Origin: Amoebophrya sp. A120
Lineage: Eukaryota > Protista > Dinoflagellata
Direction: 5' to 3'
Length of the DNA stretch: 64,000 nucleotides
Assembly (NCBI GenBank): GCA_905178155.1
Contig: CAJINV010000005.1
Location: 6,311,207-6,375,206 of the forward strand
Positions 28,801 through 46,900 of the stretch are shown here, piece by piece. The notes beneath the pieces are model-generated. The model was not told the DNA's origin, searched no databases, and saw only the letters and a list, made by a program, of their open reading frames with translations. Position 1 is the stretch's first letter. Every line of letters starts with the position of its first letter. The position numbers and the translations under genes were made by a program.

Positions 28801-31800
28801 GTGTATCGCATCGCTTCCATGACAAGCGCCGCACTTGCTGGGGTCTTTTGCAATACAAATTTTTGCTATTCACGATTGGAAACCTGTGATGCTGATACAT
28901 GCAAGAGGGCGAACGTTTCATTTGGAAAGGTTTGCAATACAAATGCTCCCAAGTTCGGGGGTGGGGGCATTTTTCACTGTAGTACGCAGATTTCCGGATT
29001 TTCCCTCGCGAACAGGAACGCGATGCCCTGCTTTTGGTAATTCTGCAAGGTTTATCAACTGCAAAAGTGTCTGGGTCTGGAAGAGTGCCAGACTTGTCAT
29101 GCAGGTTTTCCATGACCTATGAGGTCTGGCATGTAGCACATAGCATGACAGATTCTATGAGAGTTCTATCATGCCTATTCTGCATGACAAGCTGCCTCTG
29201 TCTCGATTAGGTCAAAAGTGGACAGCTTTTGGTTATCATGCAACACAGATTTATACATGATTCAGATTTAGCATCACAAGTTGCTTTGTTCCAGACCCAG
29301 ACATTTTTGCATTGGATAAGGTTCTCAAGTTCGGGAATTTTTCCAAATCCGGCACATAGTAGGGTAAGTCGTGCTTTTCCAAAAAATGCGAGTCCTGGTT
29401 CAGCACATCTTCCGCGGGGCGACCACTTCTCGACGGTGCTGAAGGTTGTAAGGCTTGTCCTGCGATATTTGAAGATATCGGCTTCAAAGTTTGATGGTCG
29501 TGGTCTCCTGAAGTTGTAGATGACGCGGCTTCGAGCACAGAAGCTAGCGCGCTCCGCTCCCGCTGTTCCAGCTCGTTTCTTTCATCTGCGCTATCGTCTG
29601 AAGAAGAGATCTCAGCCTGCTGGTGCTGGTCAACATCTCTGTTCCTTGCAGCTATCTGTAGTTCCTGATCTGTCGCACTACTAGAGGCCGCAGGTCCTGA
29701 ACGATCTCCTTTTTTTCTCCTCTTTTTCAGTGGCGGGGCGGCCGCAAGGTTGACGGCTTGAGCAGTAGTTGATCCGACGTTTTTCATCAAGAGCTTCTTT
29801 TGCTCCTCCTCTTCTTCCATTTTCTTGTTGCTCAACACTCTTTCCTATCAAGTGCAAAAATGTCTGGGTCTGGAAGAGTCGGGACTTGTCATGCACATTT
29901 TGCATGACCCGTGAGGTCTGTGATGCTGGTGCTAGCATCACAGATTTTTTGAGAGCTTCTTGACGCTGATTACGCATGAGAAATGCCCTCTCCGCGTGCC
30001 AAGAACTGACTCCTCTTGCTGCTCATGCAACACAGATATTTTTAGAATCCGCAGACAGCATTACACGTTCCACTCTTCCAGACCCAGACATTTTTGCAAT
30101 CCATATTTCCTCCATTGTCTGTCCGCGGCTCAACAGCTCCAGTTTTCCCGAAACGCTATCCAACAGTTTCTGAAAGCACAGCTTGGTAACATCCTATCAA
30201 ATGCAAATATGTCTGGGTCTGGAAACTTGTAATGCTGAGGGACTTAGAATGTGGAGGCCACAAATGATGGCTCAGCATGACAAGTTTCTGAGCTTCTAAG
30301 TCTTGCCTATTCTGCATGACAAACTGCGTTTTTGCATCACAGAAAAATAGGGACTTTGGGTAACGCGCATGACAGACTTAGGAAACTTGCTAGCCTAGCA
30401 TGACAAACCTTGCACTTTTCCAGACCCAAACATCTGTGCAATCCATACCTCCTGCCGCTCCACAATGGAATTTTGCCGGTCTTGATCAGCTTGGTGCACC
30501 ATCTGTGCAGAATTTCCTTTAATACCCACAGCCGTGGTGCCCGGATGTTGTTGTAGTAGAGCACCCGCACGACTAGCATTACCGATCGCACTTTGCGCCG
30601 CGCCACTCAAAGCTTTTTCCGTCAACACGATGAGCAGCACGACGGGAATGGACCCACCCACCTTCACGTCCTGCCCCACGCCGAAGGTATGGAGAGAAAA
30701 AAGTCTTTCGAAGTCAGTAAGCTGCACACTTGACATTACAAATTTTCTCAGCATCACAACTTCTCCTTGTATTGCAGAAACACTAGGGAAATCCCTTATG
30801 AAGTGTGGCAGTGATGCATTTTTACGCATGGCAGACAATTGTGTATTGCAAAAAGTCCCATGAGTGATCGTGGCGAGCTTTTTTCTTTTGATAGGAGGGG
30901 TCCAGGTAGCAGTGCTTCACCTCCACGAGCTCCCACAAGACCAAGGGCAGGTATGTATTGCAAATATGTCTGGGTCTGGAAAGTTGTGATGCATGTCAGT
31001 GAATAGCAAGCGCACTGTAATGCAACTCCAAGCATGACAGATTTTTTCGTGGCTCTGTGTTGCGTATTCCGCATGATAAACAGCGTTTTTGAATGACAGA
31101 CAATAGGAGCTCTTCCTGGCCACGCAATACAGAGCTCACAGTCATGCCAAACTAGCATGACGAATCTCGCAATCTTCCAGACATCCAGAGATATTTGCAG
31201 TCCATAGCAAGAGGCATTTCGCGATACTGCCCGGAAAACTGGCAATGTCGCCGTCGATACCGTTTATGTATCAACTGCAGAAGTATCATACTAGCATAAA
31301 TTGCATGACAAATCTCCTCAGCATGAGAAATGAAATTTGTAATGCGGATTTACCTTAAGAAAAGGATTTGTAATGCAAGACTTGCATTTATACGAGTACG
31401 ATACTTTTGCACAGGATATTATGGAAATTTTCACGGTGGCGTAGTCGTACAGCCACTTGATGGGTACCTTGTGCATATCACACGAAAAAAGTGTTACAGT
31501 TACACATTTGTTGTCAATTCAGCAACACAAATTTCTCTGGAACAAGAGAGAGAAAACTTGCGTTGCAGAAATCCCACGGGAAAACACTTATGAAACAACG
31601 CTCCTATGCATATCCGGCATGACAGAGCTTGTCTGTCTTGCTATGCCTGCATAGACTATGTGTGTAACTGTAACACTTTTTCTTGCGATAGTGCAGGCTG
31701 TAGTGGTACTCTCGCTGGTACTTCTGCAACTCCTTTTTGTTGTTGATCCCTGTTAAGGAGAACTCTAATATGCAGTGCAAAAGTATCGTACTCGTATAAA

Positions 31801-37694: not shown

Positions 37695-37967
37695 TATCAA
37701 GTGCAAATATGTCGGGGTCTGGAAAAGATTGCTACATTTGTCTTTGCCATGCATGTCTGACATGCCTCGAGAATCTGTGACGTGTATGGGTATCGGAAAA
37801 AGCGCTCTTACCTGTTATGCAAGAACGCAGTTTTCCACGCGGAATACGCAACACACAGAAGCTCAAAAATTTGTCATGCTTGGCTCCGTATGTTGGCAGT
37901 GCGCCTCTCACTCCCTTTTAGCATAACAAGTTTCATCCAGACGCCCCAGACACATTTGCAATGCATA
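37695..37967. mobile_element. TIR introner F2 (degenerate), in probable 3' UTR
   Basis: TSD ACTGA/ACTGA, 20 nt past the stop at 37988. Confidence 0.88.
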
Positions 37968-37987: not shown

Positions 37988-40900
37988 TTACGGCGCTAAC
38001 GGGACCGGGTGCTGACCGATTTCGGGTTCAAATTGTCTTGTTACACCATCATCGCCAATGTAAGTATCCGGGTCCCTTGCCAACTCTATTCTGAGGAAAA
38101 ATCCCCCCTCCCCATATCGAAAAGGTGCGTTTCCGAAAATTTGTGTTGCTGATTTGAGGTCACAAATCACGTCTGTCTTGCAAGAAGACAAGCGCAGAGG
38201 CTTCCGCACCATTATGGAAGCGATTTGGCATGCTGTTGCGCCTAGGGGACGCCCGTTTGCAATGCTAAGCAACTAGACCTATGCGCCCCTACCTAGGCCG
38301 AGGATCTGGCTGCGATGCCTTACTGCAAGACAAATCCGATTTGTGTACCCAAATCCAGCATCACAGATTTCCACTTCGATATGGGGAGGGGGGATTTTTC
38401 CTTTTGATAAACTCCGCCTGGATTCTAGGTTGCTGCACGATTTTGAAGTCCCGGTACCACTTATTGCAGTGAAAAGTGCCCCCCACCCCTGAAATTGCAA
38501 AATTTGTGATGCGAGGTTTCCAGATGAAAACTTTCTGTCATGCATGGAAGGAGTATGGATCTTTCTGATGCAGAGTCTAGGCGTGTATCGCATCGCTTGC
38601 ATGACAAGCGCCGCTCGTGCTGGGGCCTTTTGCAATACAAATTTTTGCTACTCACGATTGGAAACCTGTGATGCTGATAGATGAAAGAGGGCGAATGTTT
38701 CATTTGGAAAGGTTTGCAATACAAATGCGTTCACGTTCGGGAGTGGGGGCATTTTTCATTGTAATACCACTTGAAGAGCGCGTTGTCCGTCTCGAGCACG
38801 TATGCCTTGCAAATATCGATCTGGGTCAGGGAGGATGCGAAGACGAACTTGTGACGCATGTTGCGGATCATACAAACATCTGTGTAGTCGCGTGAGTTGC
38901 AAAAGGTGCCCACAACTGCTGGCCATGCTGAGAGGGAATTTCCCAGGACTACAGGCATCACCGAGGGGCGGCAGATCATCCTGTGAAGATCATGCTAGGC
39001 CCCCGCCTGCATTCCAGACGTAGTGGAGCAAGCTTGGAGAATAAAACTGCATGACAAATCTCGCATCAATCTTCCAGACCCAGATCGATTATATTTGCGT
39101 TTGGTAGCACGTATCAAATGTAAAAATGTCTGGGTCTGGAAGAGTCGGGGCTTGTCATGCACATTTTGCATGACCCGCGAGGTCTGTGATGCCGGTGCTA
39201 GCATCATAGATTTTTTGAGAGCTTCTTGATGGTAATTACGCATGAGAAATGCCCTCCCCGCGTGCCAAGAGCTGACTCCTCTTGCTGCTCATGCAACACA
39301 GATATTTTTACAATCCACAGACAGCATTACAAGTTCCACTCTTCCAGCCCCAGATCGATATTTGCATTTGGTAGCACGAGGTCGTTCACGATAGCCGCCC
39401 GCACCGCATCCGCGCCTTGCACGGGAGCAGCCAAAACCCTATCCTGTGCAAAAGTATCGTACTCGTACTAATCGCATTCATGCATTACAAATTTCGTTCT
39501 CAGGTTAAATCCGCATTACAAATTTTCTTTCTCATGCTGAGAAAATTTGTCATGCGATTTATACTAGTACGATGCTTTTGCATTTCATAAACCCGGCCAT
39601 CCGGCAAATTCGCACCGTTCAGGTCCTGTTCCTGGTTTGGTTGCCACACGCCCGAGTTCGGTGCGAGGTTCCGCAGGCGTGCGGCCACCGCCGCGGGGCT
39701 GTTGTCACCGCTGTGCCCGCCCCCAGGTCCCGACAACTGGAACACCTTCTTCTATTGAGAGGAAAAATCCCCCCTCCCCATATTGAAAAGGCATGCCACG
39801 AAAAATTTGTGATGCTGATTTGTGACCACAAATCCTGCCTCTCTTGCAAGGGGGCAAATCCAAAGAGTCCGCCACTTTATGCGGACGATTTGTCATGCTG
39901 TTACGCCTACATCGAAGGCCTCTGTTATGCTCCTAAGCACCTACACAAAAACGCCCCTACGCAGGCTGAGGCCGCCTGCAGTGCCTCATTGCAAGACAGA
40001 GCTGATTTGTGTAAGTACACAGATCCAGCCACAGAAATTTCCGTTTCAATATGGGGAGGGGGGATTTTTCATTTTGATATCTTCGCTTCCACGACAAGGT
40101 ATTGACTTTTCTGAAGTGGTATCAAATGTAAAAATGTCTGGGTCTGGAAGGTTGGAACTTGTGATGCTGTCTCTGGATTCTAAAAAATTTGCATTGCATG
40201 ACCAGCAACAGAACTCCAGTTTGTGCTACACGGAGAGGGCATTCCTCATGCGGTAGAGGCATCACAAAGGCCTCTAAAAATCTGTCATGCTAGAGCATGC
40301 ATCACAGACATCATGAGTCTTTCAGAATATGCATGACAAACCTGGCAAGCTTCCAGACCCAGACATTTTTACATTTGATAAGTGGCTCGTTTGACGCCGG
40401 AACCATCCACACCCGGGGGTTCGCGCCCCCGGCGCCGACCGGTGCTCGGCCGTTCACAAACAACCCTCGAAGCTCCTCGGTGTTGGTATGGATTGTAAAA
40501 ATGTCTGGGTCTGCTGGAAACTTGTGATGCTGGGTGGCGTATCATGAAGAAGCCACAAGTGCTGGCTCAGCATGGCAAGTTTGTGAGCTTCTTCTAGGTG
40601 TTGATGCCTATTGTGCATGGCAAACTGCGTTTCTGCATGGCAGCAAAATGGGTCTCTTTGGTCACGTGCATGAGAGATTTAAGAGTCATGCCAGACAAGC
40701 ATGACAAACATGCACTCTTCCAGACCCAGACACTTTTGCATTTGATAGTTGGTGTAACAGTACAACTTCTTGCGTCTTTCTCCGCCGGCGTTCCGTTGCG
40801 AATAGTCAATCACCAGTAGCAAGTCGGGTATCGCGAACATGTTTACAGGATCTACTATCCAGTGCAAATTATATCGATCTGGGTCTGCAAGATTTTTGCC

Positions 40901-43900
40901 AGGTTAAGGTTTGTCATGCAGGTTTTTTTGCATGAGCTCCATGATCGATCTGTGATGTATGCCCTAGCATCTTCACAGAGTTTATAAGGGCTTCTTGCTG
41001 CCTACCCCGTATGTTGTCAAATGCCCTTCATTCCGCGTAGCAAAAATTGGGCGCCTCGTCTTGCTGCTCATGCAATACAGATTTTTTTAGCATGATCCAA
41101 ATGCAGCATCACAGGTCTGGCTCGTCTTCCAGACCACCCAGATCGATGTTTGCAATGCATATCTTCCCCGCCTTCGCAAGACCCCGGAGCCGTCCACCCT
41201 CGGCCGGCGGCGGTCAGCCGGGCCTGTGGATCTGTCGTGGCCGGGTTGCCTTGCGTAGGCTCGGTCTGGCCGGGGGGAGGACCACCACCACCATCTCCAC
41301 CACCACCGCCGGCAGGGGCAGGAGGCAAGGGCATGGGGTACTGACCGATCATTTCCTGAAAGCGTTGCGCGAAATTAGGGTCCGCGTCCGCTTCCCGCTG
41401 CAACAGCTATGCATTGCAAAAGTACTATCGTACGCGTAGTATTGCAATACAAATTAGCTCAGCATGAAAAATGGAATTTCTCATGCTGATTTAGCTTGAA
41501 AAAGAAATTTGTCTTGCATGACTGCGATTAGTACGAGTACGATACTCTTGCACAGGATACGCGCGGTTGGTGCGCGATCTTCCTATCAACTGTAAAAATC
41601 CCTGGATGTCTGGAAGAATCCAACTTGTCATGCTAATTTTGGACTCTAAAAAAATCTGTATTGCATGAGCAGCAAAGAGAGTCCAAGTTTTGCTACACGG
41701 AAAGAGCATTTGTAATGCGGTACTATAGGCATCAGGAAGCCCTCACAAAATCTGTGATGCTAGGGCATGCATCACAGGTACAACTATCAGGAGTCATGCA
41801 AAACGTGCATGACAAACCTGGCAATCTTCCAGACCCAGACATTTTTACATTTGATACTTCCACAGCCGGTACCACTCGTAGAGCCGGTTCGGCCATCAAA
41901 TGCAAAAATGTCTGGGTCTGAAAGAGTGCTAGGTTTGTCTTTGTCATCATGCAGGTTATCCATAACCCGCGCGGTCTGGCATGCACGGCCTCACATGACA
42001 GCTTCTGTGCGATCTCTATCATGCCTTTCCTGCATCAGAAACTACCTCTAAACTTGTTCAGAAGTGGACCTCTTTTGGTAATCATGCAACACAAATTTTT
42101 CCACGATCCAGATGTAGCATGACAAGTTACACTCTTCCAGACCCAGACATTTTTGCAATGCATATCTGGCCCGAGACCAGTTCGGTAACGATTGCGGTTT
42201 GAACATGGGCGGGCATGTATCGCCAGAAAAAACTGTTTCACTGTAAACTTGTAATGCAGAAAATGCATTTCATAAAGTGCTTGTCTTGCTACACATGCAA
42301 GACAGTGGATTTGTAGCTGTGTTTTCCGTTAGGAACCTTGCATGGCAAATTTTCCTTGTCATGTAGAACAAACTTGTGATGCAAAACCTGCAAAATCCTT
42401 ACAGTGAAACACTTTTTTCGTACGATAGCATGTCAGATATATCGGGTCTGGCTTCGCGTCGAAACCGTGCCTCGACCTGGGGCGCGTCGTTCGCGTCGTT
42501 CCCGCCGTCCGCCTCCCTATGGCGTTCTACTCAAATGTTACATTCGCAACTGTAGTTACATGAATGTGTAATCCTAAACCGACCGAAGCCACAAACGTAA
42601 CCCATATTTATTAGGGCACCTTTCCGCAGATGGTCAGGCCACCGGGTCGCGGCGTCAGGCGGACCGAAGCCATCACCATCTTGTTCACACTCGGGCACAT
42701 CACCATCTTCACACATGAACTTGTAATGCAAGAACGGCAAAAATGAATGGGGGAAGCTTGCGCCTTTTGCATTACAGATACTTGGCACAGATTTACATGC
42801 TGTTTAGCCCCGTTGGAGCTTTGTCATGCGAAGCAGCTTAATGGTGGCGATCTTGGTGGCAAATTTGCAAGACAAATCATGTAGCAGTTGAGAATGTAAC
42901 ATTTGAGAGTCCTCCCATACTCCCCACCCGCGCCGTTGAGCTTAAACAGATCCCGCCCGCGCAGGACCAAAAAGCGACCGGCGTGCAGTAGCGCGTTGGT
43001 GTGCAGGCGCCCTCGAACGTCATACCAATCGCGGCCAAGTGTGGGGTCCGTCGGATAGTTGAGGAGGCGTCTGCGGGTATCCTGAGTAAAAACGTACCCA
43101 CACCAGAGTCAGGATGGGGATTTTGCAACACAAACCTAGGAGTTTTGTGAGTCACGCATGACAAGTTGCGCTCTGCAGTGTAGTGCAGGTTAGCAAGTGC
43201 AGCCGCGTCACAGATTCATCTGCTCATCCTGTTCACAGCATCACAAATTCCAAAACACGATTGGAAATGGCTCTCATGGGGATGCACATTACAAGTCTTC
43301 CTGTCTTTGCAAATCTGCATTACAACTCTGGTGTGGGTACGCTTTTACTCAGGATATCGGGTCTCCGGGTGGTTTTCATAGCAGTACAGGCTTTTGTTCG
43401 TGTTGTCCAGCACCAACAGCAGGTCCACAATGGGTTCAGCGGTGTAAATATCCTCTCCTTCAGGATCGCAGGTGTCGTCGACCCTCCACGTGACGTTCGC
43501 TCGCATCAGGGTAGCTGCTATCAAATGCAAATATGTCTGGGTCTGGAATAAATTTGTGATGCAAGGAGGGGAATAGTGAGCTCACTGTAATGCGCTGCCA
43601 AGCATGACAAGTTTTCTGCATGGTTCTGAGTTGGTGATTCTGCATGAGAAACTGCGTTTTTGCATGACAGGGAGTACTAGCGGCTCTTCGCGGCCGCGCA
43701 ATACAGAGCTCAGAGTCATGCCAGACCAGCATGACAAATCTCGGAATCTCCCAGAGGACCCAGACATTTTTACATTTGATAGCCGCGGCTGCACCGGCCG
43801 TGGCGGGGTTGCCCATCATGGCGAGCTGGCCCGGTGTGTACGTAGGGCCGGCTCCATTCGTGCCAAAAAGCACGCCCGACTTCCTATCAAATGCAACCAT

Positions 43901-46900
43901 GTCTGGGTCTGGAAACTTGTGATGCAAGGAAGGGACTAGTGAGCACACAACTACTTATCATGCGCTGCCAAGCATGACAAGTTTTTCCGTGGTTCTGAGT
44001 TGCGTACTTCGCATGAGAAACTGCGTCTTTGCATGACAGGCAAGAGGAGCTCTTTGTCGCGGTGACGGTGCAACACAGAGTTCAGAGTCATGCCAGACTA
44101 GCATGACAAGTCTCGCATCAACTTCCCAGACCGCAAGACATATTTGCATTTGATACTTCCAGTCGCTGTACCACTGCGGCAAAAATCGCGACAGCTCTTC
44201 CGCGTGCTGATCGCGCAGAGTGTACGGGTCCGCGCTCGCCACGACGATTCCCTATCAAATGCAAAAATGTCTGGGTCTGCAATGTTGGCGGGTTTGTCAT
44301 GCATATTTTGCATGGCCCAGGGTTGTGTGTGATGCATGTCCTTCCATCACAGACTTTTAGAACCCTTCCTGATGCCTACGCCGCATGACAAATGCGCTCC
44401 CCGCGTAGCACAAACTGGACTCCTCTTGCTGGTCATGCAATACAGATTTTTTTACCGTCCAGAGTTAGCATGACAAGTTGCAATCTTCCAGACATCCAGG
44501 GATTTTTGCAATTCATATTCCGCGATTGGGCACGACAGTCCTCGCGAGGAGGCCCGGAATGTCGCGGGGGATGGCTCCGTTCGTCAGGGTTTGGCGGAGG
44601 TCAGCCTGCGGAAGCACCATCTGCGCATTTTGGAGCACCACGAAGTTTTTCAGCTGCAGGTTTTCCCCAGCAACGTTGGCCCGCACACTATTCGGGTTTC
44701 GTTTCCGCTGGTACAAAGCCTTCCGCAGGGCTGCGTTGGAGTGGAAACAGTACAGGACTTTGCGTGCCGGATCCTGGTATGGATTGCAAAAATGTCTGGG
44801 TCTGGAAGATTGATGCAACTTGTCATGCTAAATCTGGATCATGCAAAAATCTGTGTTGCATGAGTGCCAAAAGCTGCCCACTTTCGGCCAAGTTGGGAGG
44901 GGATTTCTCATGCAGGATAGGCATTAGAAAAGTCTCGCAGAATCTGTCATGCTAAGTCCTACATACCAGACCTCATGGCTCATAGAAAACCTGCATGACA
45001 AATCTGGCAATCTTCCAGACCCAGACATTTTTGCAATCCATACCTGGAAGTCCGCTACCACCATCAGGTTGGTGATCGGCGTCTGCAACGGCAAGGGGGT
45101 TGGCGGTGCCGCGTTGTCGGTCGCGGCCCGCACGTGCGCGACCGGGAGCTGCAGGGCCGCCCGCGGCTTCGACTTCGGGCTGGTAAACTATCCTATGTAA
45201 AAACGGGGCCCACACACCAGAGTCAAGATGGGAACTCGGCTAAACAAATCCACAAGCTTTGGCTGTTTTGCATGACAGATTTGGACTCGTAGTGTAGTGC
45301 TGTTTGAGCTGGCTCAGCAGCATCACAGATCTAGTATATCATGCTGATTGGAGCATGACAAATTCCGAAACACGACAAAACAATGCTTGTCATGGGGCTT
45401 CACATGAGAAACATCTTCGGCATGCAGAATTGCATGACAACTCTGGGGACGCCGACGCTGTTGCTCAGGATATAAACTCGCAGTTGACCATCTTCCACGG
45501 CCCGGCCACGCCGCCTGCACTATCCAAGAGAAAAAAGCTGGCAGGGCATTACTATCTATTATATTCATGCAAAAGTAGAGGTCTACAGAGGGTGGAAGAG
45601 AGGTGGCCGAGAGGTAAAAAAGAGGTCGACAGAGGTCAAAAAGAGGTCGACAGAGGTGGAGAGGTGGCGCGGGAGGTCATTCGAGAGGGTGGCCGAGAGG
45701 GTGCGCGAGTATAGCCCGCCGAAGGGCTCGCCCTAAAGCCGCGCCTATAGGGACCAGAGGGGGCCGAGAGGGTCCAGAGAGGGTAAGCGAGAGGTGGACA
45801 GAGGTGCCGAGAGGTTGCGCGAATAAGGGCGAACCTCTCGCGCACCCTCTGAGCCACCTCTCGGCCACCTCTGTAGACCTCTACCGGCGAGTATAGCCGG
45901 ATTATTAGCAACACCTCTCGGGAGAGGTCAAAAAGAGGGTCTGCGAGAGGGTCAGAAAACCCCGAATCCGCCCGGCACGCGGCCGGTTTTGTTTGGGCCT
46001 TTTCATCGCGCAGGCCCGCACCCTCTCGCGCTACCCTCTCGCGCACCCTCTCGCGCACCCTCTCGCGCCACCCTCTCGCGCCACCCTCTCGCGCTACCCT
46101 CTCGCGCCCCCCTCTCGTGCCAACCATTTCCGCCGGGAGGCAAATAGGGCGGGGGCGGGATGGTGATCAAAAAAGGGCAGCGCGGCCCCCGTTCTGCTTC
46201 CTTCGGCACCTATGTCGAGGTGGCTTCTCTTCTCCCCCAGGCTTCGTTGCAGTTGCTCCCTGCGCATAGCGCCAGCAGGCGCGGGAAGCGCGCGGGAGGC
46301 CGCGCGGGCTGACATGGCGCAAACCGGCGCCAGTAGTTCCCCCGGTCTGTCACGCTGTGCCCAAAGACCCGGCGCTGCGGTCCGACCCGCGCATTGTCCT
46401 GCCCCGCCACAACAGCCTTGCGCTCCGGCGGTAGCCGGAGCATGGCTGGTATTTGTAATGCAAAAATGAATACGCAGAAAAATTTGTCATGGGTGGCCTC
46501 ATAGCATGCTGCTTCGGATATGCAACGCAGGCGCTTTTGTGTATTTATTTTTGCATTACAAATATGCCCTGCCAGCTTTTTTCTGTGTGATATGCACCCC
46601 CCGCGGGGAGGCGTGAGGTGAAATCGACTTCGTTGGTCTTCTTGTGCTGGGCCTTCCACTGAGTGAAAAATTTCACAATGTTGATCTCCAGGTCTTGCTT
46701 CATCTGCCGCTTCATATCACGCAACATCTGCGGCGTGTGGCCGTTCGTCCGCTGCCAGACTGAAGTGGGAGATTGCAGGACGGAATAATCCTCGATGCTC
46801 TGCGCTACGTCTTCTCTCTGTTCAATCGTCACTAGGTTCTGGTTGCCGTTACCCGCACCGAACAAATGCTCCATGCGCAGCACTAGGTACGACTCCTCCT

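What the first reader, a model, noticed from the sequence alone, without database searches (positions are those of the whole stretch)
38796..39378. Twin introner: two elements at the same 5-bp target with no exon between them, and outer ends that match each other
Seen: GCACG-[38801-39106]-GCACG-[39112-39373]-GCACG. The frame (DLV|LETD) needs both elements and two of the three repeats removed, leaving zero exonic bases between them. The right end of the second element (CAGATCGATATTTGCATTTGGTA) does not mirror its own left end (TATCAAATGTAAAAATGTCTG). It copies the first element's right end and complements the first element's left end (TGCAAATATCGATCTG). Inference: either recursive removal, or the outermost ends were homogenised so the pair is excised as one hairpin, which would indicate that end pairing is under selection.
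Basis: partly seen in the sequence, partly recalled or inferred. Interest (0 to 1): 0.75.

Follow-up and report, generated by a model that had tools for sequence, protein, structure and literature searches.

The report
Back-to-back introner pair spliced cleanly
Two related transposon-like introns of a kind already described in the marine parasite Amoebophrya sit back to back with no exon between them and are both missing from the messenger RNA; the newer one likely took over the older one's end on arrival, and the pair is likely cut out as one piece.

Summary
The twin is real. GCACG-E1(306)-GCACG-E2(262)-GCACG is in DNA-type contigs at single-copy depth, and RNA reads skip exactly 578 nt with no micro-exon (458 + 44 reads). 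E1 and E2 are one family in opposite orientation (bodies 59% alike), so this is not a duplication. E2's right end is foreign to its subfamily and shares two rare features with E1's right end, so it was copied locally. The selection reading fails its controls: outer-end pairing (-37 kcal/mol) is average for any two family ends, and 37 of 40 artificial inverted twins fold the same way. Likely story: a younger element landed on E1's target duplication and took E1's end, so the intron kept its old outer ends; the inner ends are predicted to pair with each other, favouring one-step removal. Recursive removal is not excluded, as no data had power for intermediates. The arrangement is rare: only 4 of 338 other end-to-end gaps fall in 6-33 nt, against about 92 expected. 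The element class is published (Amoebophrya introners) and this scan noted it in many windows of this genome; five look-ups showed no earlier twin note.

The parts
38796..38800 (.). Target duplication copy 1 (GCACG); 3' flank of the intron in the transcript
   Evidence: RNA joint
38801..39106 (+). E1, older family-A element (306 nt); body largely single-copy in X1, nearest catalogued relative 73%
38801..38835 (+). L1, outer left end, rare ATCGAT type; 3' end of the intron in the transcript
39067..39106 (+). R1, inner end; ATCGAT type with a 3-nt insertion and an A>G change relative to R2; ends TTTGGTA
39107..39111 (.). Middle GCACG, shared by both elements; absent from mRNA; predicted to lie in the apical loop of the rod
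39112..39373 (-). E2, younger family-A element (262 nt), inverted relative to E1; body 93% identical to the single element 29846-30105; high-copy subfamily
39112..39146 (+). L2, inner end; standard family end, predicted to pair with R1
39349..39373 (+). R2 terminal ~25 nt, E1-type (ATCGAT core plus TTTGGTA), foreign to E2's subfamily; 5' end of the intron in the transcript
39374..39378 (.). Target duplication copy 3 (GCACG)
38797..39374 (-). 578 nt removed from the mRNA. Length is shown; the exact cut can slide over 7 positions, and these bounds assume the 1+4 register taken from earlier notes
38765..38800 (-). Downstream exon of the host gene (about 30 nt net)
39374..39439 (-). Upstream exon of the host gene; expressed gene, no Pfam hit for 5 exon peptides tested

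Best explanation
Two Amoebophrya-type introners of one family stand back to back in opposite orientation on one 5-bp target and are both absent from the mRNA; the younger one (E2) likely arrived on the older one's target duplication and likely took a copy of the older one's right end, and the pair is likely spliced out in one step between its outer ends. Shown: anatomy, inversion, 578-nt skip in RNA and not in the DNA-type run, E2's foreign right end. Inferred: E1 came first (largely single-copy body; ATCGAT ends at both sides). E2's left end was joined precisely after GCACG, as a transposase would do. Its right terminus was replaced by E1's, either because the insertion was one-ended and resolved by recombination in the shared TTCCAGACCCAGA core, or by later conversion between the two right ends 267 nt apart. 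The result is formally E1's old intron, with its old 5' and 3' ends, plus a 267-nt internal insert, so the splicing machinery needed nothing new and no selection on pairing need be invoked. In the transcript the inner ends are predicted to pair with each other once about 40 nt of E1 are made, which displaces E2's own hairpin and leaves the outer ends to pair.
For: RNA skip of 578 nt. E1 and E2 inverted, bodies 59%. 10 of the 10 nearest E2-body relatives have a non-ATCGAT right end (alignment). ATCGAT ends are 5 of 378 and TACCAAA ends 1 of 378 among 189 family singles, yet R1 and R2 have both. The short ATCGAT end of R2 is a natural allele, one base from that in L119 and L141. Whole-rod fold: L1:R2 25 bp, body:body 104 bp, R1:L2 24 bp, 39 kcal/mol below the two folded apart. 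Prefix folds: R2:L2 falls from 28 to 0.6 pairs by 40 nt of E1. In 3 of 3 likely-RNA runs (one sample) the E1-retaining contig runs on into L2, not into the exon. Other neighbours almost never lie closer than about 34 nt, so a 0-nt exon recognised as an exon would be an exception.
Against: Folds are equilibrium predictions; E2 is transcribed first and its hairpin could be trapped. Both inner ends keep TA termini and L2 is an intact standard end, so either single cut remains possible in sequence. No true nested TIR element was found among 373, which is odd if only outer ends matter, unless insertion avoids elements. R1's longer form resembles the long end of the ATCGAT element 40856-41161, so R1 may have been long from the start, and R2's core could then have come from L1 or another copy. 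Contigs drop rare forms; 2 and 11 joints were hidden; the X2/X3/X5 intron cover could be DNA. The R2-exon junction was not seen in any laid contig.
Confidence: 0.5

Rival explanations
1. Same origin, but removal is recursive: E2+5 nt is cut first, the middle GCACG serves as acceptor then donor (zero-nucleotide site), and E1+5 nt follows. Because R2 copies R1, the regenerated 5' site is almost the same as the first one.
For: 311+267=578 exactly, and each single removal is possible in sequence. Each unit folds its own end hairpin when alone (26 and 28 pairs). Inner ends are not decayed. E2 is made first. Absence of nests could mean each unit must be intact.
Against: No single-element joint among rows shown, though X12 and X13 have almost no intron cover in any intron, so power is near nil. 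R1:L2 is predicted to displace R2:L2 within 40 nt. E1-retaining contigs keep L2. No AG|GT at the middle repeat.
Confidence: 0.3
2. One reading: the outer ends were homogenised with each other and kept by selection because the pair must be excised as one hairpin.
For: R2 is an exact 18-nt complement of L1's core; L1:R2 is 3.6 kcal/mol better than either inner pair; both R1/R2 differences favour the outer pair; if R1 was long from the start (cf. 40856-41161) R2's core is better explained from L1.
Against: Terminal 7 nt follow R1, not L1. The pairing is average for the family and is reproduced by random twins. Spliced singles in this same gene have weaker ends (40487: -30.2; 40856: about -32.5; 37695: -34.0). 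Only 44 of 198 family entries have the same 7-mer at both ends. The mutation counts fit neutrality.
Confidence: 0.12
3. E1 was first duplicated in tandem through its 5-bp repeats, and one copy's left end and body were then overwritten by ectopic conversion from an inverted high-copy relative; no new transposition at this site.
For: Explains three identical repeats and R2 resembling R1 without a precise second landing; family ends and bodies are mosaic.
Against: L2 shares only TAT with L1 at the boundary, so conversion would have to finish in 3 nt of homology; no E1 body remains in E2; no same-element tandem was seen among 236 neighbour pairs.
Confidence: 0.1
4. Assembly artefact (duplication, or two alleles joined in tandem), or DNA-level excision.
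For: R2-exon junction not seen in laid contigs; the bridge over the inner junction is short on one side.
Against: The two units are different sequences in opposite orientation; the inner junction is present with 0 differences in 4 of 4 runs, at flank depth in X1; no skip joint in X1 among rows shown.
Confidence: 0.04

Closest known systems
Introner elements / non-canonical introns of Amoebophrya sp. A120 (Farhat et al. 2021, PMC7789003; abstract, passages and sections 10, 11, 12, 16 read)
   Same: Inverted-repeat ends, short direct repeats at the borders, no GT-AG, repeated families, ends of the form TAT + 7 nt + AAA, removal from RNA.
   Different: Two elements share one target with no exon; both transcript-5' ends begin TAC. 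The words 'nested' and 'recursive' occur 0 times in that paper, and the 'tandem' passages shown concern genes; its supplement was not read.
Zero-nucleotide recursive splice sites (review PMC13149111, passages read)
   Same: An acceptor position directly followed by a donor position, with no exon left in the mRNA.
   Different: No AG|GU; intron of 578 nt, not over 10 kb; stepwise use not shown; the site is a transposon target duplication.
TIR-spacer-TIR junctions of copy-out/paste-in insertion sequences (PMC7780238 passages; 'IS911 targeted insertion' seen only as a reference title; insertion next to a resident IS end is recalled)
   Same: One end joined a few bases beyond another end, the spacer being the recipient's own flank.
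   Different: Eukaryotic non-autonomous elements; no transposase or circle shown; the junction is also what an ordinary two-ended insertion into that 5-mer would leave.
Twintrons and stwintrons (PMC8469720, start of abstract in the search listing only)
   Same: Two intron units at one exon junction.
   Different: Side by side, not one interrupting the other's splice signal; non-canonical borders; obligatory order not shown.

Membership tests
Amoebophrya introner elements (Farhat 2021) | Inverted repeats of 8-20 nt at the intron ends | tested here: met
Amoebophrya introner elements (Farhat 2021) | 3-5 nt direct repeat at the borders | tested here: met
   GCACG three times
Amoebophrya introner elements (Farhat 2021) | Removed from RNA with non-GT-AG borders | tested here: met
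   no GT..AG among the 7 possible cut positions
Amoebophrya introner elements (Farhat 2021) | Repeated family | tested here: met
   26 other copies in the window, 189 singles with the loci
Amoebophrya introner elements (Farhat 2021) | A120-type end: TAT + 7 nt + at least three A | tested here: met
   L1 and L2 fit; R1 and R2 carry the rare TAC start (9 of 748 other ends)
Amoebophrya introner elements (Farhat 2021) | Host organism is Amoebophrya | not tested
   No genome held; inferred from the element grammar and from earlier notes
Zero-nucleotide recursive splicing | No exon between acceptor and donor | tested here: met
   311+267=578 skipped
Zero-nucleotide recursive splicing | AG|GU motif in a long intron | tested here: not met
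Zero-nucleotide recursive splicing | Stepwise intermediates | tested here: inconclusive
   none among rows shown, but little power
Copy-out/paste-in TIR-TIR junction | Spacer equals the flank of the recipient end | tested here: met
   spacer is E1's own target copy; not specific to this pathway
Copy-out/paste-in TIR-TIR junction | Circular intermediate and cognate DDE transposase | not testable with these tools
Tandem duplication of one element | Two similar copies in the same orientation | tested here: not met
   bodies 49% forward, 59% reverse
Twintron / stwintron | Inner intron interrupts a splice signal of the outer one and must go first | tested here: not met
   outer ends are intact without removing either unit

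The most novel reading that the evidence does not exclude
The R1-GCACG-L2 junction is a fossil of end-targeted, one-ended strand transfer: the unknown Amoebophrya transposase attacks exactly 5 nt beyond a resident end, as copy-out/paste-in insertion sequences do, and recombination supplies the far end. Twins would then be a recurring product that reveals how these introners move (through circles with a 5-nt spacer), and the middle repeat could act as a zero-nucleotide recursive splice site in a non-GT-AG system.
Probability: 0.2. Interest if true: 0.75.

Novelty: new variant of a known kind. Interest (0 to 1): 0.45.

Why it matters
How these introners are spliced and how they move are both open questions in the papers read. 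The twin is a natural experiment in an expressed gene: one-step and recursive removal predict different excised RNAs (578 versus 267 + 311 nt), which would tell whether the machinery follows the folded end pair or takes the nearest ends as they are made. Its borrowed right end records how a new copy was joined in. It does not, as one case, show selection on end pairing. The near-empty zone of about 30 nt around elements is a general rule worth testing in its own right.

Tried and rejected
Whole-genome twin count: no genome held. No other twin among 236 neighbour pairs of complete elements or 338 end-to-end gaps (that scan missed the twin itself because R1 is diverged). Searching the records behind the loci failed. 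Outer-end pairing as evidence of selection: rejected by controls; one single (40856) was entered 1 nt off. Tandem duplication: rejected. No clear AG or GT enrichment in the repeats of 139 oriented elements. Pfam on 5 exon peptides: 0 families. The missing contig cover of the R2-exon junction is not used as evidence. Literature: seven searches; 'nested' and 'tandem' occur 0 times in PMC12130899, PMC9860276 and bioRxiv 2020.10.14.339549 (passages only); no twin introner found; supplements not read; the IS911 targeted-insertion paper is not held.

Full report
Observation. The end/5-nt/end junction is unique in the window and absent from 100 shuffles. The window holds about 70 elements with TA...TA ends and 5-bp repeats; 26 others belong to the same family as E1 and E2. 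This grammar matches the A120 introners of PMC7789003 (TAT + 7 nt + AAA; section 11).

RNA and DNA. The host gene is on the - strand. Raw RNA reads skip 38794->39373, 578 nt, in 458 reads of X12 and 44 of X13; X11 has no cover on the gene. Contigs of X7, X2, X3 and X5 show the same joint. 578 = 573 + 5 = 311 + 267, so no exon remains between the units, and other outcomes give early stops. None of the 7 possible cut positions is GT..AG. In DNA-type run X1 the inner junction is in an exact 81-nt contig at depth 47 beside a flank at 44, and no skip joint is among the rows shown. So the twin is genomic and removal is at the RNA level. Limits: the bridge is 24 nt on its short side, the R2-exon junction was not covered by any laid contig, and 2 and 11 joints were hidden.

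What the two units are. They are not copies: bodies are 49% alike forward and 59% in reverse, so they are inverted relatives. E2's body is 93% identical to the single element at 29846-30105 and lies in a high-copy subfamily, while E1's body is at single-copy depth over much of its length and its nearest catalogued relative is 73%. E2 is therefore likely the newcomer. All 10 nearest E2 relatives end without the ATCGAT motif. Among 378 ends of 189 family singles (window plus loci from a related genome, selected by a pattern) 5 are ATCGAT and 1 starts TACCAAA; R1 and R2 have both. R2's last 25 nt or so were thus copied locally. Its terminal 7 nt are R1's and not L1's; its core is the short allele seen in L119 and L141 and in L1. 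The simplest history is that R2 preserves E1's original right end and R1 later gained 3 nt and one change. A caveat is that the other two-ATCGAT element, 40856-41161, also has one long end on the same side, so R1 may have been long at the start.

Is outer pairing special? No. The 573-nt RNA is predicted to fold as one rod (L1:R2 25, body:body 104, R1:L2 24 pairs), 39 kcal/mol below the two apart. But 37 of 40 artificial inverted twins and 32 of 40 same-orientation twins also pair their outer ends, with median 28.5 and 26 pairs against 25 here. The L1:R2 duplex (-37.3) beats the inner pairs (-33.7, -33.6) slightly, and sits near the median of random cross-pairs (-38.1) and of singles' own ends (-39.5). 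Singles with weaker ends in the same gene are spliced. Two changes in R1 and one in R2 fit drift. The selection inference is not supported.

How it is likely removed. Both routes give the same mRNA. For one step: the composite has E1's old ends; prefix folding predicts that the local R1:L2 hairpin displaces E2's own ends by the time 40 nt of E1 are made; in X2, X3 and X5 (one sample; contig totals of 41-43 Mb against 105 Mb for X1 suggest RNA) the unspliced E1 contig at about 1% depth continues into L2 rather than into the exon; and elements otherwise keep apart, with 4 of 338 gaps in 6-33 nt against about 92 expected. For recursion: the inner ends are intact, E2 is made first, each unit folds alone, and no nested element was found among 373. 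Earlier notes from other windows propose a cut 1 nt before and 4 nt after each element; under it the middle repeat splits 4|1 into acceptor and donor, the geometry of a zero-nucleotide recursive site. My one informative junction (40856-41161, upstream repeat copy kept at position 2) fits that register but does not fix it. I put one step at 0.5 and recursion at 0.3.

How it likely arose. L2 is joined precisely after GCACG, which points to a transposase; the R2 switch lies in the shared TTCCAGACCCAGA core, which points to recombination. One-ended insertion resolved by recombination, and ordinary insertion followed by conversion between right ends 267 nt apart, both fit. The first resembles TIR-spacer-TIR junctions of copy-out/paste-in insertion sequences (the intermolecular version is recalled). 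A landing exactly 5 nt from a resident end, in a genome where nests and close neighbours are nearly absent, is what keeps that reading open. One X1 contig at depth 35.5 joins an R2-like end to an L2-like end through 9 other letters, possibly a second abutted pair elsewhere; a metagenome scan for family twins with a 5-nt spacer found none.

Novelty. The class is published (PMC7789003; PMC12130899, passages) and much noted by this scan. Seven literature searches and five look-ups in earlier findings (8 rows shown at most in each) gave no twin. It is a new variant of a known kind: one real, RNA-confirmed case, useful as a test of mechanism, but not evidence of selection on end pairing. Interest 0.45.

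Noticed in passing
window and loci L001-L181: Exclusion zone: right-end to left-end gaps almost never fall below about 34 nt (4 of 338 in 6-33 nt, about 92 expected from the 40-79 nt density), across families. Splicing limit or insertion footprint is not resolved.
   Followed up: partly
window and loci L001-L181: No true nested TIR element among 373 catalogued (4 candidates were shifted or chance calls), although elements make up much of the DNA of these genes.
   Followed up: partly
run X1 contig laid on window 39370->39112: A contig at depth 35.5 joins an R2-like end to an L2-like end through 9 other letters, which reads as an end, about 6 nt, and an end at another locus: a possible second abutted pair or a circle junction (table 5c).
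   Followed up: no
window 40856-41161: Second element with ATCGAT ends on both sides, also 306 nt, with a mismatched repeat; mRNA keeps the transcript-upstream copy at the mismatch.
   Followed up: partly
family A, window and loci: Ends and bodies are mosaic: only 44 of 198 entries share the first 7 nt at both ends, and singles' own ends pair no better than random cross-pairs.
   Followed up: partly
window 45521-46592: A 1072-nt element with inverted ends and a 5-bp repeat, holding short internal repeats; 45548-46108 is 90% identical to L030, the longest match between window and loci. Longest stop-free frame 176 codons.
   Followed up: no
window 37695-37967: The element lies just past the host gene's stop codon (3' untranslated region) yet is spliced precisely in 400 reads of X12.
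   Followed up: no
window 41410-41559: An element of the 150-nt family whose flanks no longer form a clear 5-bp repeat, 24 nt from the next element.
   Followed up: no
window and loci: Element lengths cluster near 150, 210, 260 and 310 nt, steps of about 50 nt (the 260 class is over-sampled by the search pattern).
   Followed up: no
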